From Escherichia coli (GTDB lineage Bacteria; Pseudomonadota; Gammaproteobacteria; Enterobacterales; Enterobacteriaceae): a stretch of DNA of 64,000 bases. A program made the position numbers and the translations under genes. The stretch lies in NCBI RefSeq assembly GCF_048403405.1, contig NZ_CP183129.1; one strand, 5' to 3'. A model generated the notes under the pieces. That model did no database searches. It had not been told where the DNA came from and saw only the letters and a program-made list of their open reading frames with translations. This document shows, piece after piece, positions 12,073 through 59,601 of the stretch (its first letter is position 1; every line of letters starts with the position of its first letter).

Positions 12073-12435
12073 AATGTCCGTGCCTGTTTATCAGATTATG
12101 GGTAAAGGATGCCACAGACAGGATGAAAACATGAGTTTTTCACCGCTTTTCGTGAAAATCTTTTGTAGATCTTCTGGATCGCTCGCAAATCGTCATGTGG
12201 ATAACTTTGTGCATAAATTATTTACATCGCTTTTAATTTATTATCATGCTTTTTACAGCATGATGTTTGTCTTTGTTTTTCATGAAGTTAAAAATAAGAC
12301 CATCCCTAATAATTGAGATAATGGGATTTTTTCTAATGTGGATAGATATGAATTATTTTTCTCCTTAAGGATCATCCGTTATTTGGGTCGTTTTCTGCTA
12401 AAATCTGCGCCTTGCGCTTCTTTAGCGCACTGTCT

Positions 12436-31449: not shown

Positions 31450-32151
31450 TCAGATAAATGCAAACGCATCGCCAAACAGGCGATCTTCCCGTGCATTACG
31501 CTCACTGCAAAACAGGTCACGGGCAATTTTCGCCATCTCAAAACGTCCGGCAATATAGATATCATGCTCTGCCAGCGTACCGTGATCCTGCAATACCGCC
31601 GTTAACACGGTGCCAGTACGCCCACGCCAGCCCGCTTCCGGTTGTTCAACCACCGGCACCACTTGCAGACCAGGATGCTTAAGCGAAAGCGCCTCAAGCT
31701 CGGAGAGATCATAAAGATGCTGCTCTTCACGCCCGCCCCAGTAAATGGTGATATCACGGTTTGGGTTACGCGCCAGCGCCGTCAGCAAAATCGAGCGCGC
31801 ATAAGAGAACCCGGTGCCGCCCGCGATGAGAATCATTGGACGTTCTTCATCATCGCGCAGCCATGCCTCACCGTGCGGAATATCGACCACGATTTGATGA
31901 TCTTTAAGAATGCGGTCCATGACTGCTTTCGCGTAAAGGTTGATTTCAGAAGCGCCAATATGCAGCTCGATGAAACCTTTTTCATCCGGCGTCGAAGCCA
32001 TTGAGAACGGACGTTTGTCACGCTCATCCATCACTACCATCAAATACTGACCAGCACGAAAAGAAAAGGCCGCGTCTGGCACGATGCGGACACGATATAC
32101 GGTATCCGTGATAGCTTCTACCGAGGTCACTTTACAGCTTAAGGTTGTCAT
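31450..32151 (-). CDS. fre: NAD(P)H-flavin reductase
   Basis: 233 aa [40 protein letters not shown]...; the ORF-track start at 32184 is upstream. Confidence 0.93.
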
Positions 32152-32196
32152 GCGCTTTCTCTGTCGGATCGATAAATAGGGCAAAACAAACGCGCA

Positions 32197-45203: not shown

Positions 45204-46763
45204 ATGAAAGTTAAATATAAAGTTTTCAGTAATCTTTATCAGGACTCAGTTTCTCTGATGCAGATTTCCGCGCAAATCAGCAAGTTGCCCGGTATTCAAC
45301 AGGCCTCGGTCGTCATGGGAACACCCAATAATCTCGAACAATTGCGCGATGCGGGTCTGGGTAACGAAATCAACGCCAGTCCCAATGATTTAGTGATTGC
45401 AGTCATGGGTGAAGAAGATATTTGCAATGAAGCACTGGCACTGGCCCAGCAACGTCTGACCAGCAAACCCGATGATGAAACGGATAGTGGCATTAAAACA
45501 CCGGAAAATGTCAGCCTGGACATGGCACTGGAAGCCGAACCCGAAGCCAACCTGGCACTCATTTCTGTACCGGGAGACTACGCCGCCGCCGAAGCAATTA
45601 AAGCGTTAAACCTCGGAATGAACGTGATGATGTTCAGCGATAACGTCAGTATCGCGCAGGAAAAATCCATCAAAATACTTGCCCGAGAACGTCAGCGCAT
45701 CGTAATGGGACCTGACTGTGGAACCGCCATTGTTAACGGCATTCCGTTAGGCTTCGCTAATGTGGTGAAACGCGGAGCAATTGGTGTTATTGGCGCGTCA
45801 GGCACCGGGCTACAGGAAGTGACTTGCCGAATCGACCAGCTCGGAGCGGGTATTTCTCAGGCGCTGGGAACAGGCGGGCATGATCTCAGTGAAGAGATTG
45901 GTGGAATATCGATGCTCTTCGCTTTAGATGCGCTGGCGCAAGACGATGAAACTCGCGTAATTGTGCTGATTTCAAAACCGCCTTCACCGATCGTTGCCCG
46001 GACTATTCTGGAGCGTGCCGAGGCTTGTGGAAAACCCGTGGTGGTGAATTTCCTCGGTGCGAATCCGCATGATCTGGCACGTCCCAATATCACTGCCGCC
46101 ACCACACTTGCCAGCGCCGCCGACATCGCTGTGGCGTTACTGAATGCTCAGCCACTTCCGGCTGTCGAGACCGAGATTTCCTGCGCCGATCTCACAATGT
46201 TACAAAACGCCTGTCAGCGCCTGCCAGCCCATCGCCAGGCGATACGCGGTGTTTTCGCCGGAGGAACCTTCTGCTACGAAGCGCAACTTATCTGCCAGCA
46301 AAAGGGATTCCGCGCCGCCTCCAATACGCCAGTTGCGAGTAATCGTACTCTGGCAAATATCTGGCAAAGCGAAGATCACACGCTGATCGATATGGGCGAC
46401 GATGATTTCACCCGTGGCAAACCGCATCCAATGATCGACCCGACTCTGCGCAATCAACGTCTGCTCAACGAACTCAACGACTCACACACTGCCGTCGTGT
46501 TATTCGACCTGGTACTTGGTTATGGCGCTTCCGCTACACCTGCCAGCGAATTACTGGACCAACTTTCACACATCGACATGAATAACGCACCGTTGCTGAT
46601 TGCGCACGTTTGCGGAACGGAAGCTGATCCGCAAATACGCAGTCAGCAGATAAGCGCACTACAAAATGCGGGCATCATCATTGCCAGCAGCAATGCACAG
46701 GCGGCGCTATGGGCCAGCGTCGTTGCGCAGACTCAGTTGCAGAAAAAGGGGCTAAACGCATGA
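45204..46763 (+). CDS. FdrA-like protein (NDP-forming acyl-CoA synthetase / succinyl-CoA synthetase alpha-like fold)
   Basis: 519 aa; shares recalled FdrA blocks: QDSVSLM, LALISVPG-YAA, NVMMFSDNV, VMGPDCGT, GVIGASGTG, DMGDDDFTRGKPHPMIDPTLRNQ. Confidence 0.7.
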   Translation: MKVKYKVFSNLYQDSVSLMQISAQISKLPGIQQASVVMGTPNNLEQLRDAGLGNEINASPNDLVIAVMGEEDICNEALALAQQRLTSKPDDETDSGIKTPENVSLDMALEAEPEANLALISVPGDYAAAEAIKALNLGMNVMMFSDNVSIAQEKSIKILARERQRIVMGPDCGTAIVNGIPLGFANVVKRGAIGVIGASGTGLQEVTCRIDQLGAGISQALGTGGHDLSEEIGGISMLFALDALAQDDETRVIVLISKPPSPIVARTILERAEACGKPVVVNFLGANPHDLARPNITAATTLASAADIAVALLNAQPLPAVETEISCADLTMLQNACQRLPAHRQAIRGVFAGGTFCYEAQLICQQKGFRAASNTPVASNRTLANIWQSEDHTLIDMGDDDFTRGKPHPMIDPTLRNQRLLNELNDSHTAVVLFDLVLGYGASATPASELLDQLSHIDMNNAPLLIAHVCGTEADPQIRSQQISALQNAGIIIASSNAQAALWASVVAQTQLQKKGLNA

Positions 46764-48184
46764 ATACCTTATTTAATCAGCCTTTGAAGGTTGTGAACGC
46801 GGGACTACACAGTTTTGCTGACAATATTCAACATGCCGGGGGAAGCGCAATTGCACTCAACTGGCAGCCACCAGCACAAGGCGATATTGACGCTGGATTG
46901 GATCTGGCATCGTTGCTACGTCATCCACTGGTAGAAAATGCCAACCAAATCGCCATGACACGTTATCTCGAAGCACAGCCCGTGCTGGTAGATGTCATGC
47001 TCGCTAAAGAGGCCATTCCAGCAATGGCTGAACAAAAACGTATTTTGCACTCTGGCCCGCCGATTGCCTGGGAAGAGATGTGTGGTCCGGTAAAAGGGGC
47101 GATTATTGGTGCCATGCTGTACGAAGGTTGGGCCACCAGCCAGCAAGACGCTGAAAACCAGATAAACGCAGGCGAAATCGACCTTGCCCCTTGTCATCAT
47201 TATCACGCGGTTGGCCCAATGGCTGGCATCATCAGCCCGTCGATGCCGTTATGGGTGGTAGAAAACAAAACCAACGGCCACCGTACTTTTAGCAATTTCA
47301 ATGAAGGTCTGGGTAAGGTTCTCCGTTTTGGCGCCAATAACGATGAAGTTCTCAATCGTCTGGCCTGGATGCGCGATGAACTGGCGCCGGCAATGAAAGC
47401 AGCAATCGCACAACACGGCGAGCTGGAACTCAAGCCATTAATGGCGCAGGCGCTGCATATGGGGGATGAAGTTCATAACCGCAATGCTGCCGCTACCGGT
47501 TTGCTGATTAAGCGCCTGCTCCCGGCATTGCTGGCCTGCTCTCTTCCACAGGAACATATCCAGCGCGTCGTGGCATTTATCACCGGTAACGATCACTTCT
47601 TCCTCAATCTGTCGATGGCTGCCTGTAAAGCAATGATGGATGCCGCCGCCAATGTACCGTTCAGTTCAATGGTTACGGTGATGGCGCGTAACGGGGTGAA
47701 TTTTGGTATTCGGCTTTCCGGTACTGGCGATCGCTGGTTCCAGGCTCCTGCCAATGCCGTTGAAGGTCTGTTCTTCCCCGGATTTGGCGTTGACGACGCT
47801 GCTGCTGACCTGGGTGATAGCGCAATTACTGAAACCGCAGGTGTGGGTGGCTTCGCGATGGCGTCGTCTCCGGCGATCGTCAAATTTGTGGGAGGCACCC
47901 CTGCCGATGCCACCAATAACAGCCGTCGGATGCAAGCCATCACCCTCGGCGGTAACCCCGCATTTACACTTCCAGCCCTCAATTTTGCCCCCACCGCAGC
48001 AGGGATTGATGCGCGTAAAGTGACCGATCGCGGCATTTTACCGGTCATCAATACGGGTATCGCCCACAAACAAGCGGGGGTCGGGCAAATTGGTGCCGGG
48101 ATCACCACTGCGCCGATGGCCTGTTTTGTCGCCGCTGTACGTGCACTGGCGGAGATCGTCGCAAAGGAGAACCATCATGGTTAA
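46760..48184 (+). CDS. DUF1116-like protein (YlbE/YahG-type)
   Basis: 474 aa from MNTLFNQPLKVVNAGLHSF; ATG overlaps the upstream TGA (ATGA coupling); size and position match the YahG/YlbE partner of FdrA-like proteins (recalled). Confidence 0.6.
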   Translation: MNTLFNQPLKVVNAGLHSFADNIQHAGGSAIALNWQPPAQGDIDAGLDLASLLRHPLVENANQIAMTRYLEAQPVLVDVMLAKEAIPAMAEQKRILHSGPPIAWEEMCGPVKGAIIGAMLYEGWATSQQDAENQINAGEIDLAPCHHYHAVGPMAGIISPSMPLWVVENKTNGHRTFSNFNEGLGKVLRFGANNDEVLNRLAWMRDELAPAMKAAIAQHGELELKPLMAQALHMGDEVHNRNAAATGLLIKRLLPALLACSLPQEHIQRVVAFITGNDHFFLNLSMAACKAMMDAAANVPFSSMVTVMARNGVNFGIRLSGTGDRWFQAPANAVEGLFFPGFGVDDAAADLGDSAITETAGVGGFAMASSPAIVKFVGGTPADATNNSRRMQAITLGGNPAFTLPALNFAPTAAGIDARKVTDRGILPVINTGIAHKQAGVGQIGAGITTAPMACFVAAVRALAEIVAKENHHG

Positions 48185-49133
48185 GCCACTGGCTGTTGTC
48201 GCGGTTGGCGGCAATGCGCTCATTCAGGACGAGCAACGCAATAGTATTCCCGATCAATATGTTGCAGTGATGGAAAGCGTGCAGCATATCGTTGATATGG
48301 TTGAAGCCGGATGGGACCTGGTGCTAACCCACGGTAATGGCCCGCAGGTGGGCTTTATTCTGCGCCGCTCTGAACTCGCCAGTAACGAAGTTTCTCCGGT
48401 TCCACTTGATTACGCCGTGGGTGATACACAAGGTGCAATTGGCTACATGTTCCAGAAAGCGCTGCATTACGAATTGGCTCGCCGTGGCATAAACAAACCG
48501 GTAATTGCCCTGGTGACACAAACGCGAGTCAGCCCACATGACGATGCTTTCGCCAACCCCAGTAAACCGATTGGCGCGTTTCTCGATGAAGCAACGGCCC
48601 AACAACGCCAACAACAACTCGGCTGGACGCTGATGGAGGACGCCGGGCGTGGTTGGCGGCGTACAGTTCCCTCTCCTGCACCACTGGAAATTATTGAGCA
48701 CGACACCATCGCTCACCTGGTGCGCCAGGGATATCTGGTTATTGCCTGCGGCGGCGGCGGTATTCCGGTGGTGCGAGACGGGCAACAACTGAAAGGTGTA
48801 GAAGCCGTGATCGATAAAGATCTGGCCTCCGCGCTGCTCGCCAGTCAGTTAGGCGCAGATCTGCTGGTGATCCCCACCGGTGTAGAAAAAGTGGCGATTA
48901 ACTTTGGTACACCACAACAACAGTGGCTCGACGCTATCAGCGTTGCCGAAGCGCAAACGCTGTTGCGGGAAGGTCAGTTTGGTGTCGGCAGTATGCAACC
49001 CAAAGTGGAAGCCATTGTTGATTTCATCAATGCCAGCCAGCAACAAGGCAAACAGGCCAGCGGCCTGATTACTTCACCGCAAACCATAAAAGCAGCCCTG
49101 GCGCATCAGAGCGGTACATGGATAACCCTTTAA
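48177..49133 (+). CDS. carbamate kinase
   Basis: 318 aa from MVKPLAVVAVGGNALIQDEQ; SD AAGGAGA; carbamate/amino-acid kinase motifs VVAVGGNAL and IACGGGGIPV; start overlaps the upstream gene by 8 nt. Confidence 0.85.
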   Translation: MVKPLAVVAVGGNALIQDEQRNSIPDQYVAVMESVQHIVDMVEAGWDLVLTHGNGPQVGFILRRSELASNEVSPVPLDYAVGDTQGAIGYMFQKALHYELARRGINKPVIALVTQTRVSPHDDAFANPSKPIGAFLDEATAQQRQQQLGWTLMEDAGRGWRRTVPSPAPLEIIEHDTIAHLVRQGYLVIACGGGGIPVVRDGQQLKGVEAVIDKDLASALLASQLGADLLVIPTGVEKVAINFGTPQQQWLDAISVAEAQTLLREGQFGVGSMQPKVEAIVDFINASQQQGKQASGLITSPQTIKAALAHQSGTWITL

Positions 49134-49149
49134 ATCTCTGGAGAACACA

Positions 49150-49539
49150 ATGACTACAACGCTTTTAGCCGTTAACGGAACGCTGATGCGCGGCCTGGAA
49201 CTCAACCCAAATATGAAAAAAGCGGGCGGTATTTTTGTCCGTGAAGACCGAACTGACGCCCATTACCGGTTGTGGAGTATTAACGATCGCCATCCGGGAA
49301 TGATTCGCGTGAATGAAGGAGGAACACACGTCGACGTAGAAATTTGGCAATTACCGCTGGCCAGTTTTGCCGCTCTGTTAATGAGCGAACCCGCTGGGCT
49401 GGCAATTGGCAAAATCAAACTTGCCGATGGTAGCGAAGTGCTGGGCGTACTGGCAGAAAACTGGCTGACCGAAGGCCAACGGGAAATTACAGAACTGGGC
49501 GGCTGGCGCAAATACACCGGGCATTTTCATACTGTGTAA
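49150..49539 (+). CDS. small GGCT/AIG2-like protein (gamma-glutamyl cyclotransferase-like fold), function unknown
   Basis: 129 aa; N-terminal LLAVNGTLMRG resembles the YGSL/GTLxxG motif of AIG2/GGCT-like proteins; weak, motif-based. Confidence 0.45.
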   Translation: MTTTLLAVNGTLMRGLELNPNMKKAGGIFVREDRTDAHYRLWSINDRHPGMIRVNEGGTHVDVEIWQLPLASFAALLMSEPAGLAIGKIKLADGSEVLGVLAENWLTEGQREITELGGWRKYTGHFHTV

Positions 49540-49564
49540 CGCGCATTTATAAAGGGAACATACT

Positions 49565-50788
49565 ATGCGTAAAAAAGAAGAGAATCTGAATACGGCATCA
49601 GGATTGCGTATTGCCATGATTTTGCTGGGTATTGCCGTCACACCTGTGCTGTTGTCATCCTCAAGCCTCGGCAATCAACTTTCCAGCGGCAGTTTAATTA
49701 GCGTCGTATTGTTAGGCGGCGTCATTCTGACCTTACTTTCAGCCATCACCATTAGCGTGGGAGAAAAAGCCCGCCTGCCAACGTATGGCATTGTGAAATA
49801 TTCGTTTGGCGAAAAAGGGGCCATCGCCATTAACATTTTGATGGCGATAAGTCTGTTCGGCTGGATTGCCGTTACCGCCAATATGTTTGGTCATTCGGTA
49901 CATGACTTACTGGCTCAACATGGACTGGAAGTTCCACTGGCACTGTTAGTGGCGGCTGGCTGTGTCATTTTTGTCGCCTCTACGGCATTTGGCTTTGCCG
50001 TTCTGGGAAAAATTGCCCAGGTTGCCGTGCCGGTTATCGCGCTGGTGCTGTGTTACATCCTCTATGTGGCAACCCATACCGAAGTGGCAGTACCAGCGGC
50101 GATTGTGGAGATGAATACAGGTGTCGCCGTTTCCACCGTTGTTGGCACCATTATTGTGCTGGTTGCCACACTGCCTGATTTCGGTAGTTTTGTGCATAAC
50201 CGCAAACATGCACTGATTGCCGCAGGCGTGACGTTTCTGGTTGCCTACCCTCTGCTCTACTGGGCGGGTGCAACGCCGAGCGCCATTAGTGGTCAGGGAT
50301 CTTTACTGGGTGCGATGGCGGTATTCGGTGCGGTTCTGCCTGCGGCGCTGTTGTTGATTTTCGCCTGCGTCACCGGTAACGCGGGCAATATGTTCCAGGG
50401 CACGCTGGTGGTTTCCACACTGCTTACCCGCTTTCCCAAATGGCAGATTACCGTGGCGCTGGGTATCCTTTCCGCCATCGTAGGCAGTATGGATATTATG
50501 GCGTGGTTTATTCCGTTTCTGCTGTTCCTGGGTATCGCCACGCCACCCGTTGCCGGAATTTATATCGCTGACTTTTTCCTTTATCGCCGTAATGGCTATC
50601 AAGAGTCAGTGTTAGCCCAGGAGTCACAGATTAAAGTGCTGACATTCGCAGCATGGATCATAGGCGCAGCGGTTGGCTTTATGACCGTAAAAGGCTTATT
50701 CACCCTGACGACGATCCCTTCGGTAGACTCGATTCTGGTGGCATGTATCGCGTATGCGATTCTCAGTCGGGCAAGTCAACACCGCTAA
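49565..50788 (+). CDS. NCS1-family permease (CodB-like nucleobase/cytosine-type transporter)
   Basis: 407 aa, multi-TM; C-terminal block IPPVAGIYIADFFLYRRNGY closely resembles the recalled CodB IPPVGGVIIADYLMNRRRYE. Confidence 0.75.
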   Translation: MRKKEENLNTASGLRIAMILLGIAVTPVLLSSSSLGNQLSSGSLISVVLLGGVILTLLSAITISVGEKARLPTYGIVKYSFGEKGAIAINILMAISLFGWIAVTANMFGHSVHDLLAQHGLEVPLALLVAAGCVIFVASTAFGFAVLGKIAQVAVPVIALVLCYILYVATHTEVAVPAAIVEMNTGVAVSTVVGTIIVLVATLPDFGSFVHNRKHALIAAGVTFLVAYPLLYWAGATPSAISGQGSLLGAMAVFGAVLPAALLLIFACVTGNAGNMFQGTLVVSTLLTRFPKWQITVALGILSAIVGSMDIMAWFIPFLLFLGIATPPVAGIYIADFFLYRRNGYQESVLAQESQIKVLTFAAWIIGAAVGFMTVKGLFTLTTIPSVDSILVACIAYAILSRASQHR

Positions 50789-50865
50789 TTCCTGGGTATA
50801 CTCAGGCAATGATTACGGCTGAATCTGGAGAGATTCAGCCACTTTACCACTGACCAGGGAGCCTT

Positions 50866-51771
50866 ATGTTCATCTCAGACGAAACGCTTCGTGTTATTCA
50901 TCTGGTCGCCAGACACCAGAGCATTACCATCGCAGCCGAGCAGTTAAATAAAGTCCCTTCCGCCATCAGTTACACCATCAAGAAAGCGGAAGAGAGCCTG
51001 GGCGTTGAACTGTTCATTCGTAAGGGACGCTATATTGAATTATCGCCAGCGGGAAGTTACTTCATCGAACATAGCAAAACTATTCTTGGCGACCTGGAAG
51101 CATTAAAGCGCAACACAGTGCTGATTCACGATGGTATTGAGCGTGAACTGACAATTGCGGTAAACAATATTATTCCTGGTAATTTGCTGGTGGCATTTAT
51201 TCGAGATTTTGAACGGCAATTCACATCAACAACACTGACGGTAGATCTTGAGGTATACAACGGCTGCTGGGATGCGCTGTACAGTAAGCGTGCTGATCTG
51301 GTCTACGGTGCTCCTCATGCAGTACCAAGTAGTGAAGGCATCATTAGCGAACCGGTCGGACAAATGGAATGGGATTTTGTCGTCAGCCCACTCCACCCAC
51401 TGGCAGCGAAGCGGCATCCATTAGAAAACAGTGAATTGCGTCATTATCCAGCGGTTTGTATCCGCGATACCTCCGTTAACTTCCCCCCGATGCAAGCCTG
51501 GTTGTTGGAAGGACAAAAACCCATTTTTGTTCCTGACTTCGCTACGGCAATCGCCTTAATAGAACAAAACGTCGGTATTGGTTATATTCCACATCATCTG
51601 GCATTGCCGTTATTGAACAGCGGTAAATTGCTTAAAAAGCCAATGCGCGAACATAAACACGCCACCAAGTTATTTCTTGCCGCTCGTTCCGATGGTATGG
51701 GCAAAGCCTGTCAGTGGTGCATAGAATATTTAAGAAACCCGCAATTAATGACACGATTTGTATTTAATTGA
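50866..51771 (+). CDS. LysR-family transcriptional regulator
   Basis: 301 aa; N-terminal wHTH (SITIAAEQLNKVPSAISYTIKKAEESLGVELFIRKGR) and LysR substrate-binding domain; SD GGGAG. Confidence 0.85.
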   Translation: MFISDETLRVIHLVARHQSITIAAEQLNKVPSAISYTIKKAEESLGVELFIRKGRYIELSPAGSYFIEHSKTILGDLEALKRNTVLIHDGIERELTIAVNNIIPGNLLVAFIRDFERQFTSTTLTVDLEVYNGCWDALYSKRADLVYGAPHAVPSSEGIISEPVGQMEWDFVVSPLHPLAAKRHPLENSELRHYPAVCIRDTSVNFPPMQAWLLEGQKPIFVPDFATAIALIEQNVGIGYIPHHLALPLLNSGKLLKKPMREHKHATKLFLAARSDGMGKACQWCIEYLRNPQLMTRFVFN

Positions 51772-51970
51772 CAATACAATGATAAAAATATAAGTCTTGC
51801 TTTAATTAGAGCGCCCGTTTAAATTATTTTTGTGCAGTTGACGTAACTCATGAAAATTAACCGGTCTGTTAATCATTACGTTCACTGCACACCTTCATTT
51901 TTTCACACCTATCCACGCCTGAAAACTATGTTATAATCAGCACTTTCTGTCAGAATGAAATTTACTAATT

Positions 51971-52816
51971 ATGAATAACATAACCGTAAAAAGTCTGATT
52001 CAAAGCAATTACCCTACACTGCATCAGGCGGAAAAAAAGGTCGCCGACTATATTCTTAGCCACGCACATGAAGTCGTGAACTATAGTGTCACTGAACTAT
52101 CAGAAAAAAGCCATGCCAGTGAAGCGACTATCGTGCGCACCTGTAAGAAATTAGGTTATCAGGGTTATTACCATTTAAAAATTGCATTAGCAAAAGAAGT
52201 CATTAATCCTGACAATAGCTATCCTGATAATACCGATTTTACCGATATAACGTCGCTGGCCACATTTTTATTAAAAAAACAGGCCGAAGATTTAATACAA
52301 TCAACGCAATTTTTTAATGCCGAAGTGCTTGAGTCCATTCTCAAACTACTTGCTAATTGCGATACTATTTTCTTTTTTGCTGCCGGAAATTCAAACCCTC
52401 TGGCCGTTTATGGTGCTTATAAATTCAGCCAACTCGGATTAAAAACCGTTGTTCACGTCAGCCCGGAAATGCAAATTAATGCGGCATATTCTATGGGGAA
52501 ACGCGACCTGGCGATTGGTATTTCTAACTCTGGCAGCACCAACTTAATGGTCGATATCTTTAAAGTGGTGAAAGAGCGCGGTGCCAAATCCGTTTGTATC
52601 ACTAACTATATTAAATCTCCGTTATCAAAACTCTCCACCCATCAACTCAATACCGCGGTCAGCGATAAAATCTTCTTTGAAGCCTTCGACTCCACTCGCG
52701 TTCCGGCAATGGGCGTTATTGATATGCTGGTGCTGTTGTTTATGTATAAAAACAAGGCGCATTACGAGAAATACCGCACCCGTGAAGAGTTTCTCGGCTC
52801 CCGTTTCAAGGGGTAA
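51971..52816 (+). CDS. RpiR/MurR-family transcriptional regulator (HTH plus SIS domain)
   Basis: 281 aa MNNITVKSLIQSNYPTLHQAEKKVADYILSH...; HTH_6 then SIS sugar-phosphate-binding domain. Confidence 0.85.
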   Translation: MNNITVKSLIQSNYPTLHQAEKKVADYILSHAHEVVNYSVTELSEKSHASEATIVRTCKKLGYQGYYHLKIALAKEVINPDNSYPDNTDFTDITSLATFLLKKQAEDLIQSTQFFNAEVLESILKLLANCDTIFFFAAGNSNPLAVYGAYKFSQLGLKTVVHVSPEMQINAAYSMGKRDLAIGISNSGSTNLMVDIFKVVKERGAKSVCITNYIKSPLSKLSTHQLNTAVSDKIFFEAFDSTRVPAMGVIDMLVLLFMYKNKAHYEKYRTREEFLGSRFKG

Positions 52817-52838
52817 AAGGTCATCCTTTCACCCCTTG
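52807..52838. terminator. bidirectional stem-loop between convergent rpiR-like and transketolase genes
   Basis: CAAGGGGTAAAAGG-tcat-CCTTTCACCCCTTG (14-bp stem, one mismatch); the left arm includes the rpiR stop codon. Confidence 0.55.
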
Positions 52839-52845
52839 TGCAGGT

Positions 52846-54843
52846 TTAGCTATTCAGTAGCTCACGCGCCTGCGCCAGGACATTTTCCGGCGTAAAACCA
52901 AAGTGTTTGAACAACACATTCGCCGGAGCAGACTCACCAAAGCTCGTCATCCCAATGACTTTACCATCCAGACCGACGTAGCGTTCCCAGAATCCGGCGA
53001 TGCTGGCTTCTACCGCCAGACGTTTGCGTACAGCTTTTGGCAATACCGATTCTTTGTACGCCGCATCCTGATTATCGAAACGCTCGGTACACGGCATGGA
53101 AACTACGCGAACTTTACGCCCTTCTTCCGTTAACGCTTTTGCGGCGCTGACCACTAACTCAATCTCTGAACCCGCAGAAATGAGGATCATCTCAGGCTGA
53201 CCGTCACAATCACTCAGTACATAACCACCACGCGCAATCTCTGCCAACTGTGCAGCGGTGCGCGGCTGTTGCGCCAGCGGTTGGCGCGTTAATACCAACG
53301 ACGTTGGGCCATCTTTGCGCTCAATCGCCTGTTGCCAGGCCACCGCCACTTCCACCTGATCGCAACCGCGCCAGGTTTCCATATTCGGCGTCAGACGCAG
53401 CGACGCCAGTTGCTCAACGGGCTGATGTGTCGGGCCGTCTTCGCCCAGGCCGATGGTATCGTGGGTATAAACAAACACCGAGCGGATCTTCATCAGCGCC
53501 GCCATGCGCAGTGCATTACGCGCATATTCCATAAACATCAGGAAAGTACCGCCGTAAGGGATAAACCCACCATGCAGCGCAAGACCGTTCATGATGGCCG
53601 ACATACCAAATTCACGCACGCCATAGGAGATGTAATTCCCCGCCGGATTTTCCCCGGTGAAATCAACCGATTTCTGATGGCGAGTCAGGTTAGAGGGCGA
53701 CAAGTCCGCCGAGCCGCCCATCAGTTCCGGCAGCATATCAGCGAAGTGATTGAGGCATTTCTGGCTGACCTGACGGGTTGCCAGCGCCGCCGGATGGGAT
53801 TGCAGATCGTGCACATATTTCTGCATATTCTCGGCCCAGCCAGCAGGCAAATCACCCTTCATGCGACGAGTAAACTCCGCCGCCAGTTCCGGCCACTGCT
53901 TCGCGTAGTCAGCAAACAGTGCATCCCATTCCTGTTGAACCTGCGCGCCTTTCTCGGTCGCATCCCATTCGGCATAAATTTCACCAGGAATTTCGAAAGG
54001 GGCATACGGCCATTGCAGACGTTCACGCACCAGCGCCACTTCATCTGCACCCAGCGCCGAGCCGTGGCAATCGTGGCTGTTGGCTTTATTTGGTGAACCA
54101 AAACCGATAATCGTTTTGCAGCACAGCAGACTGGGCTTATCCGTGACGCTTTTCGCTTCACGCACCGCAGCATCTACCGCTTCTGGATCGTGACCATCAA
54201 CGCCTTCAATGACATGCCAGCCGTAGGCACGAAAACGGGCAGCCGTATCTTCAGCGAACCAGCCTTCTACGTGACCATCGATCGAAATACCGTTATCGTC
54301 CCAGATAGCAATCAGATTGCCGAGCTTCAGCGTTCCTGCAAGACCACAGGCCTCGTGGGAGATCCCTTCCATCAGGCAGCCATCACCCAAAAATAGCCAT
54401 GTGTGATGATCAACAATATTAAAGCCCGGTTTGTTAAATTCTGCCGCCAGCGCCTTCTCCGCAATCGCCATCCCCACCGCATTAGCTACGCCCTGCCCCA
54501 ACGGGCCGGTGGTGGTTTCAACACCCGGCGTATAACCATATTCTGGATGACCCGGCGTGCGGGAGTGGAGCTGACGAAAGTCGCGAATATCATCCATCGA
54601 CAGGTCGTAGCCTGTAAGATGCAGCAAAGCGTAAATCAACATGGAGCCGTGACCGTTCGACTGAACATAGCGGTCGCGGTTAAACCACTGCGGATTTTTT
54701 GGGTTATGACGCAGGTGACGACGCCAGACCACTTCGGCAATATCCGCCATCCCCATCGGCGCGCCCGGATGACCGGAGTTCGCTTTCTGGATCGCATCAA
54801 CACTTAACATTCGGATGGCATTAGCCAGTAATTGTGAATTCAT
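52846..54843 (-). CDS. transketolase (third paralogue, distinct from TktA/TktB)
   Basis: 665 aa [44 protein letters not shown]...; TPP-binding [10 protein letters not shown]; diverged from recalled TktA/TktB (identity not computed). Confidence 0.93.
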
Positions 54844-54893
54844 ACTTCAGCTCTCTCTGTCTGGCGGGCTGAAACCAGCCCGCTAATCTCGAA

Positions 54894-56402
54894 TTAGTTA
54901 GCACAGGCCACTGTCATTTCTGTCGGGCGCGGTCTGCTCATTACGGTTTTAATTTCGTCGCGCAGGATTTGCGATTTGCCGCCAAATATCACCTGTACAC
55001 CGCCATCACCCAGTTTCACTAACCCCGCAGCCCCCAACTCCTTCAGCCGTTTTTCATTCACTTTCTTATCGTCTACCAGCGCCAGCCTCAGGCGTGTTGC
55101 GCAGGCATCCACATCTTCGATATTGTCGAAACCACCTACTGCTTCGATGATTTGGTATGGACGTTCTTCGCGCGTTAATGTGGTTGCAACGGCAATCTCT
55201 TCATCCTCACGTCCCGGTGTTTTCAGATTCAACTTGCGGATCAGTACCCGAAATACGGTGTAGTAAATCGCTGCATAGCCCGCGCCTGCCAGGAACACCA
55301 GATACCACGGCGTGCGGTTTGGCATAACGCCATTCAGTACGAAATCAATAAGACCGCCAGCAAAAGGATGACCAATGTGCACATTCAGGATGTTCATCAG
55401 CACAAATGAAGTGGCATATAAGAAGATGTGAATGATGTAGAGAACCGGAGCTGCAAACAAAAATGCATATTCCAGCGGCTCCGTAATCCCGGTAACAAAT
55501 GTGGTCAGCGCACCGGAGAGTAAAAGGCCTTTAATCAGCGCCTTACGTTCCGGTTTTGCTTCCTGATACATCGCCAACGCGGCGGCAGGTAACGCAAACA
55601 TCATGATCGGGAAACGACCTGTCATAAACAGCCCCGCCGTCAACGGAACACCGTCGCGCAATTGGGCAAAGAACACCGGAATATCGCCCGTCACCAGTTG
55701 CCCGGATTTGGTCATGTAGTCGCCAAAGTTGTAATAAAACGGCACGTTCCAGATATGATGCAGGCCAAAAGGAATCAGCGAACGTTCGCCAACGGCGTAA
55801 ATAAAGGCCGCGAAGTTCGCGTTATGCCCACTGGTCACCAGCGTTGAAAGCGACGCCAGACCTTTTTGTACCGGTATCCACAGCCACGGCAATAAATAGC
55901 CGACAATAATTGCCGCCACCGCCGTAATAATCGGTACAAAGCGTTTTCCACCGAAGAAACCAAGAAACTGAGGCAATTCAATATTGTGGAAGCGGGTATA
56001 GAGCAGATAAACAAAGATGGCGACAATCAAACCGCCAAACACTCCCGTTTGTAACGTCGGTACCCCGAGGATCATCGCATAGTCACCGTTACTGGCTGCA
56101 ACGGACTCCGCGGTAATGCCAAGTTGCGTTCCCATCGTGGCATTCATGATCATGTAACTGATAATCGCTGAAAGTGATGAAGAACCATCACCTGTCAGGC
56201 CAATCACAATACCGACACAAAACAGCAAAGGAAGGTTGGCGAAAATCAGGCCGCCGCAATTCGCCAGCAGCTCAATGTTAAATGAAATCCCGATGGCTAA
56301 AATCAAACCCGCCGCCGGAAGAATGGCGATTGGTAACATCAGAGCAGAAGAAAATTTCTGCAACTTCTTGAAGTTAAACAAGGATGTTATTTTTTTGCTC
56401 AT
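54894..56402 (-). CDS. PTS glucose-family EIICB component
   Basis: 502 aa; EIIC motif GITEPLEYAF; C-terminal EIIB phospho-cysteine motif DACATRLRLALVD; SD CAGGAGAA; no EIIA domain or gene nearby. Confidence 0.9.
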   Translation of the reverse strand: MSKKITSLFNFKKLQKFSSALMLPIAILPAAGLILAIGISFNIELLANCGGLIFANLPLLFCVGIVIGLTGDGSSSLSAIISYMIMNATMGTQLGITAESVAASNGDYAMILGVPTLQTGVFGGLIVAIFVYLLYTRFHNIELPQFLGFFGGKRFVPIITAVAAIIVGYLLPWLWIPVQKGLASLSTLVTSGHNANFAAFIYAVGERSLIPFGLHHIWNVPFYYNFGDYMTKSGQLVTGDIPVFFAQLRDGVPLTAGLFMTGRFPIMMFALPAAALAMYQEAKPERKALIKGLLLSGALTTFVTGITEPLEYAFLFAAPVLYIIHIFLYATSFVLMNILNVHIGHPFAGGLIDFVLNGVMPNRTPWYLVFLAGAGYAAIYYTVFRVLIRKLNLKTPGREDEEIAVATTLTREERPYQIIEAVGGFDNIEDVDACATRLRLALVDDKKVNEKRLKELGAAGLVKLGDGGVQVIFGGKSQILRDEIKTVMSRPRPTEMTVACAN

Positions 56403-56443
56403 TTTTATTCTCCTGTAGGGTATCGAGCAAATAACGGCGACGA

Positions 56444-57001
56444 CTATTCCAGATTGGCGTGGCGCTTAAACAGTTCACTTTCCGGCGCACCACTTTCAGC
56501 AGCCATCTTCATCACTAATGCATCGGCAATCACCAGCAAAGCTTGCTCATACAACGACGCCATCGGCTGTGCCGAGCGGAAAACAGAATCTTTTTGATTT
56601 TTGGAAGGGGCATTGATTTGCACGATGACGTCGACAAACTCGGTGATAGTGGCGTGTCGATTCGTGGTTAACACCGCCACAGCGCCGCCAAGCTGACGTG
56701 CTTTTTTCGCCAGTGCCACCAGTTGTGCTGTCTCACCGGAAGCGGAAGAAACGATAAACAGATCGCCAGGCCCAAAGTTCGGCGTAATGGTTTCCGTCAG
56801 AAAGTAAACCTCTTTTCCCATATGCATCAGGCGCATGGTGAAGGCTTTCATGGAAAAGCCGGCGCGTCCCAGGCCATAGCAGAAAACGCGCTGGCTTTGC
56901 TGAATAGCGTCGATCAATTTGGTGCAGTCATCCTCACGGATAGAGTCCTTAACGAAGGTTAATTCATTGATGATCTCAGTGATGTACAGCTTTGCGTCCA
57001 T
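56444..57001 (-). CDS. SIS-domain sugar-phosphate isomerase (6-phospho-3-hexuloisomerase-like)
   Basis: 185 aa from MDAKLYITEIINELTFVKD (SD AGGTG upstream; the alternative start at 57013 adds 4 aa); single SIS domain with GLGRAG and SSASGET motifs. Confidence 0.72.
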   Translation of the reverse strand: MDAKLYITEIINELTFVKDSIREDDCTKLIDAIQQSQRVFCYGLGRAGFSMKAFTMRLMHMGKEVYFLTETITPNFGPGDLFIVSSASGETAQLVALAKKARQLGGAVAVLTTNRHATITEFVDVIVQINAPSKNQKDSVFRSAQPMASLYEQALLVIADALVMKMAAESGAPESELFKRHANLE

Positions 57002-57008
57002 TTCACAC

Positions 57009-57214
57009 CTCATGAAATAATTTTCTCAAACACAAAATCTCATGAAATTTTATTTCATTCCAATGCATCAGTATGAAATGTGAAGCTAGTCACAAGAAAG
57101 ATCATAGGTTGATATGTTTTTCATTAAAAAACATATAGATATCAAGTAATTTTTAATATGTGATGGAGAGGCAGATAGAAAAAATGGCGGAAATGACGAA
57201 ATTTATTTCATGAG
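57009..57214 (-). promoter_or_regulatory. control region of the SIS-PTS-transketolase operon: consensus CRP site (TGTGAAGCTAGTCACA, 57078-57093) and repeated CTCATGAAAT motifs (57009-57018, 57039-57048; inverted copy 57205-57214)
   Basis: Motifs read directly in a ~290-bp AT-rich spacer upstream of the first operon gene; a possible -10 TAAAAT on the minus strand at 57052-57047. Confidence 0.55.
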
Positions 57215-57309
57215 AAGGGAATAAAGAAGATTTTCTTAAACAGGGTATGAACTGATATCTGGAATGGTTTACGCAGTATGCTGGGAAGACGTCGCTGTAA
57301 TGAGAAAAG

Positions 57310-57332
57310 ACCGGGTGGTATTACCACCCGGT
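57310..57332 (-). terminator. metE terminator hairpin (probably bidirectional)
   Basis: ACCGGGTGG-tatta-CCACCCGGT, 8 nt after the metE stop, followed by a T-rich run on both strands. Confidence 0.6.
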
Positions 57333-57339
57333 TTGGATT

Positions 57340-59601
57340 TTACCCCCGACGCAAATTCTGCGCCGCCTGCACCATGTTCGCCAGTGCCGCGCGAGTTTCT
57401 GGCCAGCCGCGCGTTTTCAGGCCACAGTCCGGGTTGACCCACAGACGCTCTGCCGGAATGCGTTTTGCCGCTTTCTTCAGCAAGGCTTCAATCCATTCCA
57501 CGCTCGGTACGTTTGGCGAGTGAATGTCATAGACGCCAGGACCGATTTCATTTGGATAATCAAACTCTTCAAACGACTCCAGCAACTCCATGTCGGAACG
57601 CGAGGTTTCGATGGTGATGACGTCTGCGTCCAGCGCCGCAATCGAATCCATGATGTCGTTGAACTCGCAGTAACACATGTGAGTGTGGATTTGTGTGTCA
57701 TCTTTCGCCACGGCGGCGTTGATACGGAAAGCCTCTACGCCCCACTGGAGATATGCATCCCAGTCGCTACGACGCAGCGGTAAACCTTCGCGCAGCGCCG
57801 GTTCATCAATCTGAATGATGCCAATTCCAGCGGCTTCCAGGTCCGCGACTTCATCACGCAGCGCCAGCGCAATTTGTTTGGCGATGGTTTCACGGCTGAC
57901 ATCTTCACGCGGGAACGACCAGCAGAGAATGGTCACTGGGCCAGTCAGCATCCCTTTCACCGGTTTATCAGTCAGCGATTGCGCATACTTCGCCCACTCC
58001 ACGGTAATCGGTGCCGGGCGGCTAACGTCACCAATAACAATCGGTGGCTTCACGCAGCGGGAACCGTAGCTCTGTACCCAACCGTTTTGCGTAAAGACAA
58101 AGCCATCCAGATGCTCGCCAAAGTATTCCACCATGTCATTACGCTCGGCCTCGCCATGTACCAGCACATCCAGTCCCAAACGTTCCTGCTCAACAATGGC
58201 CTGCTTGATATGTTCCGCAATGCCCGTGCGGTAGTTGTTAGCGTCGAGATTACCCTTTTTAAAATCCAGACGCAGGGTACGAATCTCCGTGGTTTGCGGG
58301 AAGGAACCAATCGTGGTGGTCGGCCACGCGGGCAGTTTAAAACGCGCACGCTGGGCTTCAGCACGCACTTCATAGACATTCGCACGCTGACTGTCCTGGG
58401 CGGTGATCGCCGCCAGACGCTTTTCTACTGCCGGATTATGAACACGAGTAGAGTGACGACGCGCCTGAATCGGAGCGCTCCACTCTGCCAGAGCAGCCGT
58501 GTCACCACTGTTCAGCGCATCGCGCAGCAGTGCCAGTTCATGACATTTTTGCAGGGCGAAGGCAAACCAGCTTTTCACTTCTGCATCAAGACGCGTTTCC
58601 ACGCTCAGGTCGATGGGGCTGTGCAGCAGTGAGCAGGAAGATGCCACCCACAAATCGCGTTTGCCGACAATGTCCTTAATTTGCGCATACTTCTCGGTAA
58701 GATCGGCGCGCCAGACGTTACGACCATTGATCAGACCCGCAGACAGTAGCCAGTCAGAAGGCAGACGCTTGTGCAGTTCAGCAACGTCATCTTTACCATG
58801 TACAAGGTCCACATGCAGCCCCTGAACAGGCAGCGCAGTAATCGTGTCGAGATTTGGCGTTACGCCTTCAAAATAGGTAGTCAGCAGCAGTTTCACCTGG
58901 CCCTGAAGCGCGTCGTAAGCGGGTTTGTATGCGTCCAGCCACGCCTGCGGTAGTTCCAGTACCAGTGCGGGTTCGTCGATCTGTACCCACTCAATGCCGC
59001 GTTTTGCCAGTTCTGCCAGTACTTGCTGATAAACCGGCAGAATGTCGTTTAGCAGGCTCAGGCGGTCAAACTGTTCACCTTTCACTTTCCCAAGCCATAG
59101 GTAGGTAACCGGCCCCAGCAGCACAGGTTTCACCTTGTGGCCCAGCGCCAGCGCCTCGTCCACTTCCTCCAGCAGCTGCGTCCAGGTCAGTTTGAACTGC
59201 TGGCCTTTAACGAACTCCGGCACCATGTAGTGATAGTTGGTGTTAAACCATTTGGTCATTTCCGCTGCCGCCGCAGGTTCGCCAGTCGGCGCACGTCCAC
59301 GACCAATACGGAACAGGGTGTCGATATCTACCGAACCATCTTTGTTCTGATGACGTGGCGGAACATTACCCAGCAGCAGACTGGTGGTCAGTACATGATC
59401 GTACCAGGCAAAATCGCCCACCGGCAGCAGGTCGATACCCGCCTGCTTTTGTTGATCCCAGTGACGGGCACGCAGTTCACGCCCTACTGCCAGCAGTTCT
59501 TCACGCGTGGAGTTCCCCGCCCAATAACTCTCTTGCGCTTTTTTCAGCTCGCGACGCAGGCCAACGCGAGGGAAACCGAGGGTGTGATTAAGAATTGTCA
59601 T
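57340..59601 (-). CDS. metE: cobalamin-independent methionine synthase
   Basis: 753 aa [48 protein letters not shown]... Confidence 0.97.

What the first reader, a model, noticed from the sequence alone, without database searches (positions are those of the whole stretch)
57009..57214. Consensus CRP site and a recurrent CTCATGAAAT motif in module B control regions
A perfect CRP core TGTGA-AGCTAG-TCACA sits at 57078-57093 upstream of the SIS-PTS-transketolase operon, which argues for cAMP-CRP activation and hence a carbon-catabolic role. Copies of CTCATGAAAT occur at 57009-57018 and 57039-57048, an inverted copy at 57205-57214, and another forward copy at 51847-51856 in the promoter region of the rpiR-like gene. 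I read these as candidate operators for the RpiR-family repressor, flanking and overlapping the core promoter. AT-rich context raises chance matches, but four copies of a 10-mer confined to the two promoters of one module is notable.
Basis: seen in the sequence. Interest (0 to 1): 0.55.

Follow-up and report, generated by a model that had tools for sequence, protein, structure and literature searches.

The report
CRP site and repressor boxes, tkt1 island
The control region of an uncharacterised sugar-uptake operon (hxlB-ptsG-tkt1) in an E. coli virulence-associated island holds a conserved CRP site and conserved inverted-repeat boxes that are most likely operators for the neighbouring RpiR-family regulator, which is an ordinary kind of sugar-operon switch that had not been described for this island.

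Summary
CTCATGAAAT occurs exactly three times in 64 kb, all within 206 bp. A perfect TGTGA-N6-TCACA lies at 57079-57094, one base off the stated coordinates. The fourth copy (51847) is only 9/10, no better than chance, and not conserved.

The window is E. coli. The region is the tkt1 genomic island between ysgA and metE. I aligned ten orthologous promoters from eight lineages (Escherichia, Klebsiella, Serratia, metagenomes). The conserved elements are:
- the CRP half-sites, at a fixed distance from the start codon;
- Box B, GAAA-N5-TTTCAT, invariant arms, which is copy 2;
- Box A, GAAA-N4/5-TTTCAT, which is copy 1 and overlaps the Shine-Dalgarno sequence.

A distal inverted Box C (copy 3) recurs in three other lineages. 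The real unit is the inverted repeat.

Best reading: cAMP-CRP activation plus repression by the adjacent HTH_6+SIS (MurR/RpiR-family) regulator at boxes over the core promoter and 5' UTR. This resembles MurR with CAP at murQP. Binding, the transcription start and the inducer are untested.

It is a new member of a known kind, of modest interest.

The parts
57079..57094 (.). CRP-binding site core TGTGA-AGCTAG-TCACA (22-bp site 57076-57097, AAATGTGAAGCTAGTCACAAGA). Its centre at 57086.5 lies 85.5 bp upstream of the hxlB-like ATG.
   Evidence: It is the only perfect core in the 64-kb window. A CRP-like site sits at the same aligned position in all 10 orthologous promoters. Core columns have 0.83 pairwise identity against 0.33 for the 6-bp spacer.
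57042..57058 (.). Box B: perfect palindrome ATGAAAT-TTT-ATTTCAT, core GAAA-N5-TTTC(AT). Its centre at 57050 lies 36.5 bp downstream of the CRP centre and 49 bp upstream of the ATG. It is the proposed primary operator.
   Evidence: It matches GAAANNNNNTTTCAT on both strands and is the only such place in the window. The arms GAAA and TTTCAT are invariant in 10 of 10 promoters, with pairwise identity 1.00 against a background of 0.32-0.47.
57012..57025 (-). Box A: GAAAATTATTTCAT (GAAA-N4-TTTCAT) on the minus strand. It is the proposed secondary operator over the 5' UTR, 30.5 bp from Box B.
   Evidence: It is conserved in orthologs with 0.76 pairwise identity. The spacing is N4 in most lineages and N5 in the APEC O1-type, Serratia ficaria (L007) and the Serratia-type locus L015.
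57198..57214 (+). It is a possible auxiliary operator.
   Evidence: It forms a 24-nt, 83%-complementary inverted repeat with the Box A region (I1). It is present nearly unchanged in L016 and as a TCATGAAAT half-site at about -185 in Klebsiella and L003. It is absent from the APEC O1-type island.
57008..57011 (-). Shine-Dalgarno GAGG of the hxlB-like gene. This is the 'CTC' end of copy 1 read on the other strand.
   Evidence: Read directly from the sequence. GAGG or GGAG is conserved 7-9 nt before the ATG in the orthologs.
56444..57001 (-). hxlB-like SIS-domain gene (6-phospho-3-hexuloisomerase family), first gene of the operon. Start is ATG 57001.
   Evidence: RefSeq annotation. NCBIfam TIGR03127 scores 205 bits against a cut-off of 160.
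54894..56402 (-). ptsG-like PTS EIICB transporter gene.
   Evidence: TIGR02002, 608.6 bits against a cut-off of 591.8.
52846..54843 (-). tkt1 transketolase gene, last gene of the operon.
   Evidence: PMC3349570.
51971..52816 (+). MurR/RpiR-family regulator gene (HTH_6 + SIS), the proposed repressor that binds the boxes.
   Evidence: Pfam HTH_6 at residues 7-77 and SIS at residues 127-255. It scores below the cut-off of every characterised NCBIfam equivalog.
57310..57332 (-). metE intrinsic terminator. Together with the island/backbone junction at about 57258/57259, it bounds the control region.
   Evidence: for the terminator. Island-free E. coli genomes match only 57259-57345.

Best explanation
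The 57002-57258 interval is the control region of the hxlB-ptsG-tkt1 operon of the E. coli tkt1 island.

Proposed mechanism:
- cAMP-CRP binds the site at 57079-57094 and is needed for transcription, because the promoter has no recognisable -35/-10.
- The adjacent MurR/RpiR-family protein (51971-52816) represses the operon. It binds the inverted-repeat boxes GAAA-N4/5-TTTCAT.
- Box B (57042-57058) is the primary operator and lies over the -10/start region.
- Box A (57012-25) lies over the 5' UTR and ribosome-binding site as DNA.
- Box C (57198-57214) is an optional upstream auxiliary site.
- A sugar phosphate made by the PTS transporter or HxlB-like step would bind the regulator's SIS domain and release it from the DNA.

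Shown: the sequence elements, their statistical excess, their conservation and fixed spacing across eight lineages, and the regulator's domain make-up and genetic linkage.

Inferred: which protein binds the boxes, the sign of regulation, the position of the transcription start, and the inducer.
For: - Excess: three exact 10-mers in 206 bp and none in the other 63.8 kb. Local shuffles reach this in 11 of 5000 trials. GAAA-N4/5-TTTCAT hits only the three boxes plus one coding-region palindrome.
- Phylogenetic footprint over 10 promoters from 8 lineages, with HxlB identity from 67 to 100%. CRP cores score 0.83, Box B arms 1.00 and Box A 0.76. Flanks and spacers score 0.32-0.47.
- Spacing: the CRP-to-Box B distance is identical in 8 of 10 promoters and 1 bp shorter in the two Serratia-type promoters.
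- Specificity: in each 14.5-kb orthologous locus, GAAA-N4/5-TTTC occurs 2-4 times, and two of these are always Boxes A and B.
- Island variants: homology between the two E. coli island variants stops about 9 bp upstream of the CRP site. Everything needed for expression must therefore lie from the CRP site downstream.
- Sign of regulation: Box B centre is only 49-51 bp from the ATG and a conserved Shine-Dalgarno sequence must be transcribed. An activator site is therefore geometrically excluded, and a repressor site is what fits.
- Regulator: it has HTH_6 + SIS and is linked to the operon in E. coli, Klebsiella, L003 and Serratia.
- Co-loss pattern: Klebsiella and Serratia also carry an SgrR-like regulator, and its own control region holds a different conserved motif. 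E. coli lost both of these and kept only rpiR and the boxes.
- Negative controls: distant hxlB loci without an RpiR gene (L004, L008, L011) have no boxes upstream.
- Precedent: MurR is a tetrameric RpiR-family repressor that binds neighbouring inverted repeats and is released by a sugar phosphate (PMC9177960).
Against: - There is no experimental binding, transcription-start or expression data. The published papers found in the four relevant literature searches contain none.
- Arm spacing differs between boxes (N5 in Box B; N4 in Boxes A and C of this window). This is unusual for a single dimeric helix-turn-helix protein.
- The best -10-like hexamer (TAWWAT in the Box B spacer) starts 34.5 bp from the CRP centre. 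The canonical class II distance is 29.5 bp and class I about 49.5 bp, so the CRP/RNA polymerase geometry is unresolved.
- No box is conserved upstream of rpiR itself. The GFO...rpiR operon of Klebsiella and Serratia lacks the boxes. There is therefore no second, independent target linking the motif to this regulator.
- Part of Box A's conservation is explained by the Shine-Dalgarno sequence.
- L009 keeps the boxes, but no rpiR is visible within 7 kb because the locus is truncated.
Confidence: 0.6

Rival explanations
1. The boxes are real operators but are bound by a different, chromosomally encoded regulator that recognises GAAA-N5-TTTC palindromes. Candidates are the IclR-family KdgR or PlaR, or another global AT-rich binder. 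The neighbouring RpiR-like protein would then act elsewhere or not at all.
For: - Box B has the architecture of the KdgR box as I recall it from Rodionov et al. 2004 (AATRAAAYRNYRTTTYATT, from memory, not retrieved). E. coli reads AATGAAATAAAATTTCATG and Klebsiella AAAGAAATATTATTTCATG, each about 17/19 by eye.
- KdgR is present in all the genera concerned.
- No second target ties the motif to RpiR.
Against: - Genuine K-12 KdgR sites upstream of kdgK (AATGGAACACTGTTTTAAT) and kdgT (AATAAAACAGCGTTTCAAT) carry AAC..GTT inner bases. Box B has AAT..ATT in most lineages.
- Boxes A and C have N4 spacing in this window.
- The operon has no link to pectin or KDG catabolism.
- The boxes co-occur with the rpiR gene and are absent from RpiR-less hxlB loci.
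Confidence: 0.1
2. The conserved TTTCATGA words act in the mRNA, not the DNA. The Box B right half (AUUUCAUGA) pairs with the Box A/Shine-Dalgarno segment (UCAUGAGGU) to form a 5'-UTR hairpin. This hairpin would sequester the ribosome-binding site or stabilise the transcript.
For: - RNAalifold predicts exactly this 9-bp stem on the 10-sequence alignment.
- It would explain why 'CATGA' is conserved beyond the TTTC arm.
- A class II CRP geometry would put the transcription start at about the beginning of that segment.
Against: - The covariation term is +0.22 kcal/mol, which is no support, and only 1 pair shows a double change.
- The single-sequence fold is not better than shuffles, with z = -0.96.
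- The APEC O1-type island carries two substitutions that break two different pairs without compensation.
- TCATGA is self-complementary, so direct repeats of it pair automatically.
- The invariant left arm GAAA and the distal inverted Box C are not explained by this model.
Confidence: 0.08
3. The repeats are a chance or compositional feature of AT-rich, horizontally acquired DNA, or a remnant of island assembly. Only the CRP site, if anything, is functional.
For: - The region has 34% GC.
- Box C sits about 45 bp from the island junction.
- The APEC O1-type island lacks Box C altogether and still carries the operon.
- An 11-mer near Box C (57178-57188) recurs in the sgrR/GFO control region of Klebsiella and L010, which hints at vestigial sequence.
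Against: - Local shuffles reach the observed multiplicity in only 11 of 5000 trials.
- Boxes A and B are conserved, with invariant arms and fixed spacing, across eight lineages whose flanking bases have randomised.
Confidence: 0.05

Closest known systems
MurR plus cAMP-CAP control of murQP in E. coli K-12
   Same: - An RpiR-family (HTH_6 + SIS) regulator is encoded next to an operon for a SIS-domain enzyme and a PTS EIIBC transporter.
- MurR is a tetrameric repressor that binds neighbouring inverted repeats in the control region and is released by the sugar phosphate formed by the pathway (PMC9177960).
- CAP dependence of murQP is from my own knowledge of Jaeger & Mayer 2008, which I did not retrieve.
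   Different: - The regulator here scores only 70 bits against the MurR equivalog, whose cut-off is 408.
- The murR-murQ intergenic sequence shows no GAAA-N5-TTTCAT box.
- The genes here are convergent rather than divergent.
- There is no sign of autoregulation.
- The substrate is unknown.
HexR and AlsR (RpiR), other characterised MurR/RpiR-family repressors
   Same: They share the same two-domain fold and sugar-phosphate sensing. They bind AT-rich palindromic operators over promoters of carbohydrate genes (general knowledge).
   Different: All their NCBIfam models score far below cut-off: HexR 105 against 296, and AlsR 94 against 400. The operator words differ.
KdgR box (IclR family)
   Same: It has the same GAAA-N5-TTTC palindrome architecture with AT-rich flanks (and consensus from memory).
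   Different: The inner bases are AAC/GTT in real sites but AAT/ATT here. Boxes A and C have N4 spacing. The regulator family and pathway are different.
Canonical CRP-dependent sugar promoters (lac, gal, mal type)
   Same: There is a perfect TGTGA-N6-TCACA core with an AAA 5' flank. The site is upstream of a promoter that lacks a consensus -35/-10.
   Different: The distance to the transcription start is unknown. The only good -10-like hexamer is 5 bp out of register with class II geometry.

Membership tests
cAMP-CRP-activated promoter | A 22-bp site with the TGTGA-N6-TCACA core. | tested here: met
   TGTGAAGCTAGTCACA at 57079-57094 is a perfect core. It is the only one in 64 kb, against 0.06 expected.
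cAMP-CRP-activated promoter | The site is under purifying selection in orthologous promoters. | tested here: met
   A CRP-like site is present at the same position in 10 of 10 promoters. Cores score 0.83 and the spacer 0.33 in pairwise identity.
cAMP-CRP-activated promoter | The site is centred near -41.5, -61.5 or a further helical repeat relative to the transcription start. | tested here: inconclusive
   No transcription-start data exist and no consensus promoter was found. The best -10-like hexamer is 34.5 bp from the CRP centre, which fits neither class (derived).
cAMP-CRP-activated promoter | CRP binds the site, and expression depends on cAMP and CRP. | not testable with these tools
   This needs a gel shift or footprint, plus reporters in crp and cyaA mutants.
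MurR/RpiR-family repressor-operator system | The regulator has an N-terminal HTH_6 domain and a C-terminal SIS domain. | tested here: met
   Pfam HTH_6 at residues 7-77 (E = 9.5e-22) and SIS at residues 127-255 (E = 5.7e-20).
MurR/RpiR-family repressor-operator system | The regulator gene is genetically linked to the target operon across species. | tested here: met
   It is adjacent in E. coli, L003 (282-aa ORF on the opposite strand immediately after tkt, domains not checked) and Klebsiella. It lies in the same cluster in Serratia ficaria. Linkage is unknown for the truncated loci L009, L010, L015 and L016.
MurR/RpiR-family repressor-operator system | A palindromic operator lies in the control region, overlapping the promoter. 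| tested here: inconclusive
   Palindromic boxes are present and conserved. Overlap with the core promoter follows from geometry only, because no transcription start is mapped.
MurR/RpiR-family repressor-operator system | The regulator binds the operator and is released by a sugar phosphate. | not testable with these tools
   This needs a gel shift or footprint with purified protein and candidate hexose or hexulose phosphates.
Characterised RpiR-family equivalogs (MurR, HexR, AlsR) | The score reaches the curated NCBIfam cut-off. | tested here: not met
   HexR 105 against 296, PRK11337 102 against 378, AlsR 94 against 400, and MurR 70 against 408. It is a separate, uncharacterised subfamily.
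KdgR regulon operator | A 19-bp palindrome with AAAC..GTTT inner arms, as in the kdgK and kdgT operators. | tested here: not met
   The real sites read GGAACACTGTTTT and AAAACAGCGTTTC. Box B reads GAAATAAAATTTC. Boxes A and C have N4 spacing.
Shine-Dalgarno-sequestering 5'-UTR hairpin | A conserved stem supported by compensatory changes and by stability above background. | tested here: not met
   The covariation term is +0.22 and only 1 pair shows a double change. The fold z-score is -0.96. The APEC variant breaks two pairs without compensation.

The most novel reading that the evidence does not exclude
The three boxes work together. A tetrameric RpiR-family repressor bridges the distal inverted Box C (or Box A) and Box B, looping out the CRP site and promoter. 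In addition, the same TCATGA-containing words reappear in the transcript as a weak Shine-Dalgarno-occluding stem, so that one sequence motif is used at both the DNA and RNA levels. The B2/APEC O1-type island has lost Box C and carries a point change in both remaining boxes. It would then be a naturally de-repressed variant of a virulence-associated operon.
Probability: 0.1. Interest if true: 0.5.

Novelty: new member of a known kind. Interest (0 to 1): 0.3.

Why it matters
The tkt1 island is enriched in B2 extraintestinal pathogenic E. coli, and a tkt1 transposon mutant was out-competed in chickens (PMC3349570). Even so, its hxlB, ptsG-like and rpiR genes were still listed as uncharacterised in 2026 (PMC12928451), and the substrate is unknown.

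A defined operator and CRP site give practical handles:
- A Box B reporter, or a regulator knockout, can be used to screen for the inducing sugar. This would reveal what the pathway consumes.
- The two natural promoter variants, with or without Box C and with G-to-T and G-to-A changes beside both TTTCAT arms, can be compared for expression.

Scientifically this is a routine CRP-plus-local-repressor design, so the value is practical rather than conceptual.

Tried and rejected
- Fourth copy at 51847 as an autoregulatory operator: rejected. It is a 9/10 match, at chance level, varies within E. coli, and is not conserved.
- The ATGAAAT at 51955 near the rpiR start: not conserved in Klebsiella or L003.
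- Known RNA families: nothing significant, with the best E = 0.19-0.32.
- Sigma-70 consensus promoter scan: 0 hits. I tried class II, class I and -35-like (TTGGAA) registers by hand on the alignment, and none gave a conserved -10 at a canonical CRP distance.
- Activator model for Box B: rejected on geometry. The box centre is 49-51 bp from the ATG, and the Shine-Dalgarno sequence must be transcribed.
- SgrR-like regulator as the box binder: rejected, because E. coli lacks that gene yet keeps the boxes, and the regulator's own intergenic region has a different conserved motif.
- ArgR, Cra and NagC/Mlc boxes: considered from memory and rejected, because arm length, spacing and orientation do not fit.
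- MurR operator similarity: none is visible in the K-12 murR-murQ region.
- Palindrome ATGAAACCTTTTTCAT at 31970-31985: it lies inside a coding ORF and is probably chance.
- The genome-contig scan with HxlB gave only 2 loci. Orthologs were obtained instead through the protein search and contig look-ups.
The 64-kb window and shuffles were used instead.

Full report
**What and where**

The window is Escherichia coli. The stretch 51700-57340 is 100% identical to several complete genomes and is present at 80% coverage or more in 1133 of 5426 complete E. coli genomes. RefSeq annotation of strain MS 69-1 gives this gene order: ysgA, a roughly 9-kb 'module A', a MurR/RpiR-family regulator (window 51971-52816, +), tkt (52846-54843, -), a ptsG-like EIICB gene (54894-56402, -), hxlB (56444-57001, -), then metE (stop at 57340, -).

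[quoted passage not shown] It was described in APEC O1 and is associated with B2 ExPEC (PMC3349570). Island-free genomes match only 57259-57345, so the island junction lies at about 57258/57259. The finding therefore sits in the 57002-57258 control region upstream of the hxlB-ptsG-tkt1 operon. The metE terminator follows at 57310-57332.

**Checking the observation**

CTCATGAAAT occurs exactly three times in the window, at the stated coordinates (57009, 57039 on +; 57205-57214 on -). The expectation is 0.14, and no shuffle out of 100 reached three.

The region is AT-rich, with 34% GC against 51.5% for the window. I therefore shuffled only the 338-bp intergenic sequence and asked how often any 10-mer reaches three copies on either strand. 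This happened in 11 of 5000 shuffles.

The perfect CRP core is real and unique in the window.

The claimed fourth copy at 51847-51856 reads CTCATGAAAA. Allowing one mismatch gives 6 hits in the window against 5.0 expected, so it carries no weight.

PGAP starts hxlB at ATG 57001. This start is preceded by GAGG at 57008-57011 on the minus strand. The 'CTC' of copy 1 is therefore the complement of the Shine-Dalgarno sequence.

**Comparative evidence within E. coli**

There are two versions of the upstream region. About 672 genomes carry the window type. The rest, which include APEC O1:K1:H7, share only the first 104-114 bp or so. Beyond that they carry a T6SS tssD pseudogene and small ORFs.

Homology ends about 9 bp upstream of the CRP site, so the functional promoter must lie from the CRP site downstream. 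In the APEC O1-type sequence the CRP site and the palindrome ATGAAATTTTATTTCAT are identical to the window. Both 10-mers are altered there, to CTAATGAAAT and CTTATGAAAT, and Box A gains one base.

**Comparative evidence beyond E. coli**

A protein search with HxlB and contig look-ups gave orthologous hxlB-ptsG loci from:
- Klebsiella aerogenes and K. pneumoniae (L005, L006);
- Serratia ficaria (L007);
- a contig labelled Chryseobacterium with an enterobacterial-like locus (L003);
- four metagenomic or short-read contigs (L009, L010, L015, L016).

HxlB identity to the query ranges from 67 to 91%.

I aligned the 115 bp before the start codon from 10 promoters representing 8 lineages. Per-block statistics show a clear footprint, given here as pairwise identity:

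| Block | Pairwise identity |
|---|---|
| Upstream of the CRP site | 0.32 |
| CRP half-sites | 0.83 |
| CRP 6-bp spacer | 0.33 |
| Between CRP site and Box B | 0.38 |
| Box B arms (GAAA and TTTCAT) | 1.00 (invariant in 10 of 10) |
| Between Box B and Box A | 0.47 |
| Box A | 0.76 |

The CRP centre lies 84.5-86.5 bp from the ATG in every promoter. The CRP-to-Box B spacing is identical in eight promoters and one base shorter in the two Serratia-type promoters.

In each 14.5-kb orthologous locus, the pattern GAAA-N4/5-TTTC occurs only 2-4 times, and two of these are always Boxes A and B. In the window, GAAA-N5-TTTCAT matches only Box B, on both strands because it is a perfect 7+3+7 palindrome at 57042-57058. 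GAAA-N4-TTTCAT matches Box A (57012-57025, -), Box C (57198-57211, +) and one palindrome inside a coding region at 31970.

Box C and the Box A region form a 24-nt inverted repeat. Box C is nearly unchanged in L016. It is represented by a TCATGAAAT half-site at about -185 in Klebsiella and L003. L010 has a distal GTGAAATTTTTTTCAC.

The conserved unit, however, is an inverted repeat, not the 10-mer.

**Who binds the boxes**

The neighbouring regulator has an HTH_6 domain and a SIS domain. It falls below the cut-off of every characterised NCBIfam equivalog, including HexR, AlsR and MurR.

It is linked to the operon in all complete loci. In Klebsiella and Serratia it is the last gene of a larger cluster: an sgrR-like gene, divergent from GFO/MocA oxidoreductase, AP_endonuc_2, hydrolase, a MOFRL protein, a 108-aa ORF (Klebsiella only), then rpiR.

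The sgrR-like/GFO control region has its own CRP-like site and a different conserved motif (TTTTTCAGTTTTCC and CGGAAA), with no boxes. E. coli has lost the sgrR-like gene, the GFO operon and that motif. It retains only rpiR and the boxes. This is the pattern expected if RpiR pairs with the boxes and the SgrR-like protein pairs with the other motif.

Distant hxlB loci without an RpiR gene (L004, L008, L011) have no boxes upstream. Because those organisms are remote, this control is weak.

MurR is the best-studied relative. It is a tetramer that binds neighbouring inverted repeats and is released by MurNAc-6-P (PMC9177960).

**Sign and geometry of regulation**

Box B is centred 49-51 bp upstream of the ATG, and a conserved Shine-Dalgarno sequence must be transcribed. 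An activator site at -41.5 or further would place the start inside or beyond the Shine-Dalgarno sequence, so Box B can only be a repressor site.
- If CRP acts in class II (-41.5), Box B is centred at about -5.
- If CRP acts in class I (-61.5), Box B is centred at about -25.
- Either way it overlaps the core promoter.

No sigma-70 consensus promoter is detectable, which fits activator dependence.

One point remains unresolved. The best conserved -10-like hexamer, TAWWAT in the Box B spacer, starts 34.5 bp from the CRP centre, which matches neither canonical class.

**Rival explanations**

1. KdgR or another GAAA-N5-TTTC binder. Box B resembles the KdgR-box architecture. Real K-12 sites at kdgK and kdgT have AAC..GTT inner bases whereas the boxes have AAT..ATT. 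Boxes A and C also have N4 spacing. I rate this about 0.1.
2. An RNA stem between the Box B right half and the Box A/Shine-Dalgarno segment. RNAalifold predicts it, but there is no covariation (+0.22) and the fold is no better than shuffles (z = -0.96). The APEC variant also breaks two pairs without compensation. I rate this about 0.08.
3. Chance or vestigial sequence. The footprint disfavours this, at about 0.05.

**Comparison and novelty**

The design is CRP activation combined with repression by a locally encoded RpiR-family protein that senses a sugar phosphate. This is the same design as murQP/MurR and many other sugar operons.

Four literature searches and reading of the tkt1 island papers found no analysis of how this island is regulated. 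A 2026 genome paper still lists hxlB, ptsG-like and rpiR as uncharacterised.

This is therefore a new member of a known kind. It is useful for finding the inducer and substrate of a virulence-associated operon, but not conceptually surprising. Interest is 0.3.

Noticed in passing
window 57104-57258 vs L002 7105-9360: There are two structural variants of the island upstream of the CRP site. The window type (about 672 complete genomes) runs straight to metE. The APEC O1/B2 type has about 2.3 kb more, including a tssD (Hcp) pseudogene and two small ORFs, and lacks Box C. Homology breaks about 9 bp upstream of TGTGA.
   Followed up: partly
window 57001-57013: The longest ORF for hxlB starts at ATG 57013. 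PGAP and the ortholog alignment support ATG 57001, preceded by GAGG. The upstream in-frame ATG lies inside copy 1 and is destroyed in the APEC O1-type sequence (CATGAG to CATTAG).
   Followed up: yes
L017 5373-12647; L007 1-6762; L010 1-3653: Klebsiella and Serratia carry a larger cluster that E. coli lacks. It comprises an sgrR-like regulator divergent from a GFO/MocA oxidoreductase, an AP_endonuc_2 (sugar-phosphate isomerase/epimerase-like) protein, an alpha/beta hydrolase and a MOFRL/DUF4147 (glycerate-kinase-like) protein, a 108-aa ORF (Klebsiella only), then rpiR. This suggests the E. coli island holds only part of an unknown PTS-dependent sugar pathway.
   Followed up: partly
L017 7062-7257; L010 1767-1961; L007 4873-5070: The sgrR-like/GFO divergent control region has its own CRP-like site, which is a perfect TGTGATTTAAATCACA in L010. 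It also has an invariant 14-mer, TTTTTCAGTTTTCC, with a partner CGGAAA. This motif is distinct from the boxes and may be the SgrR-like protein's site.
   Followed up: no
window 57178-57188: GAAAAAATGGC, just beside Box C, is identical to an 11-mer in the Klebsiella and L010 sgrR/GFO control region (GCCATTTTTTC on the other strand). It may be a vestige of that region, or chance in A-rich DNA.
   Followed up: no
window 51857-51874; L005 about 12130-12150 (-); L003 about 12150-12170 (-): Upstream of rpiR there is a degenerate conserved block: TTAACCGGTCTGTTAATC in E. coli, TGTAACTGGTCTGCAAC in Klebsiella and TGTAATCGTTCTGTAATC in L003. In Klebsiella and L003 it sits between the arms of a long inverted repeat, GGCGCGAAAAT...ATTTTCGCGCC. 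Its function is unknown. The rpiR -10 (TGTTATAAT, 51929-51937) is also conserved in L003.
   Followed up: no
window 31970-31985: The perfect palindrome ATGAAACCTTTTTCAT matches the GAAA-N4-TTTCAT pattern on both strands. It lies inside a 244-aa ORF (31450-32184, -) and is probably chance.
   Followed up: partly
L003 (CACSKA010000003.1): This contig is labelled Chryseobacterium sp. 18061 but carries an enterobacterial-type hxlB-ptsG-tkt-rpiR locus, with HxlB 80% identical to E. coli and Klebsiella-like promoter boxes. The assembly is probably mislabelled or contaminated.
   Followed up: no
window 46709-51771: Module A of the island encodes fdrA, a DUF1116 protein, carbamate kinase, an allophanate-hydrolase-related protein, a cytosine permease and a LysR regulator. 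It resembles the fdrA-ylbE/F-ybcF cluster of the K-12 allantoin region, and has no box motif.
   Followed up: no
window 57274-57342 (+): There is a weak, non-significant Rfam match to sraA (23 bits against a gathering score of 56, E = 0.32) over the metE terminator region.
   Followed up: no
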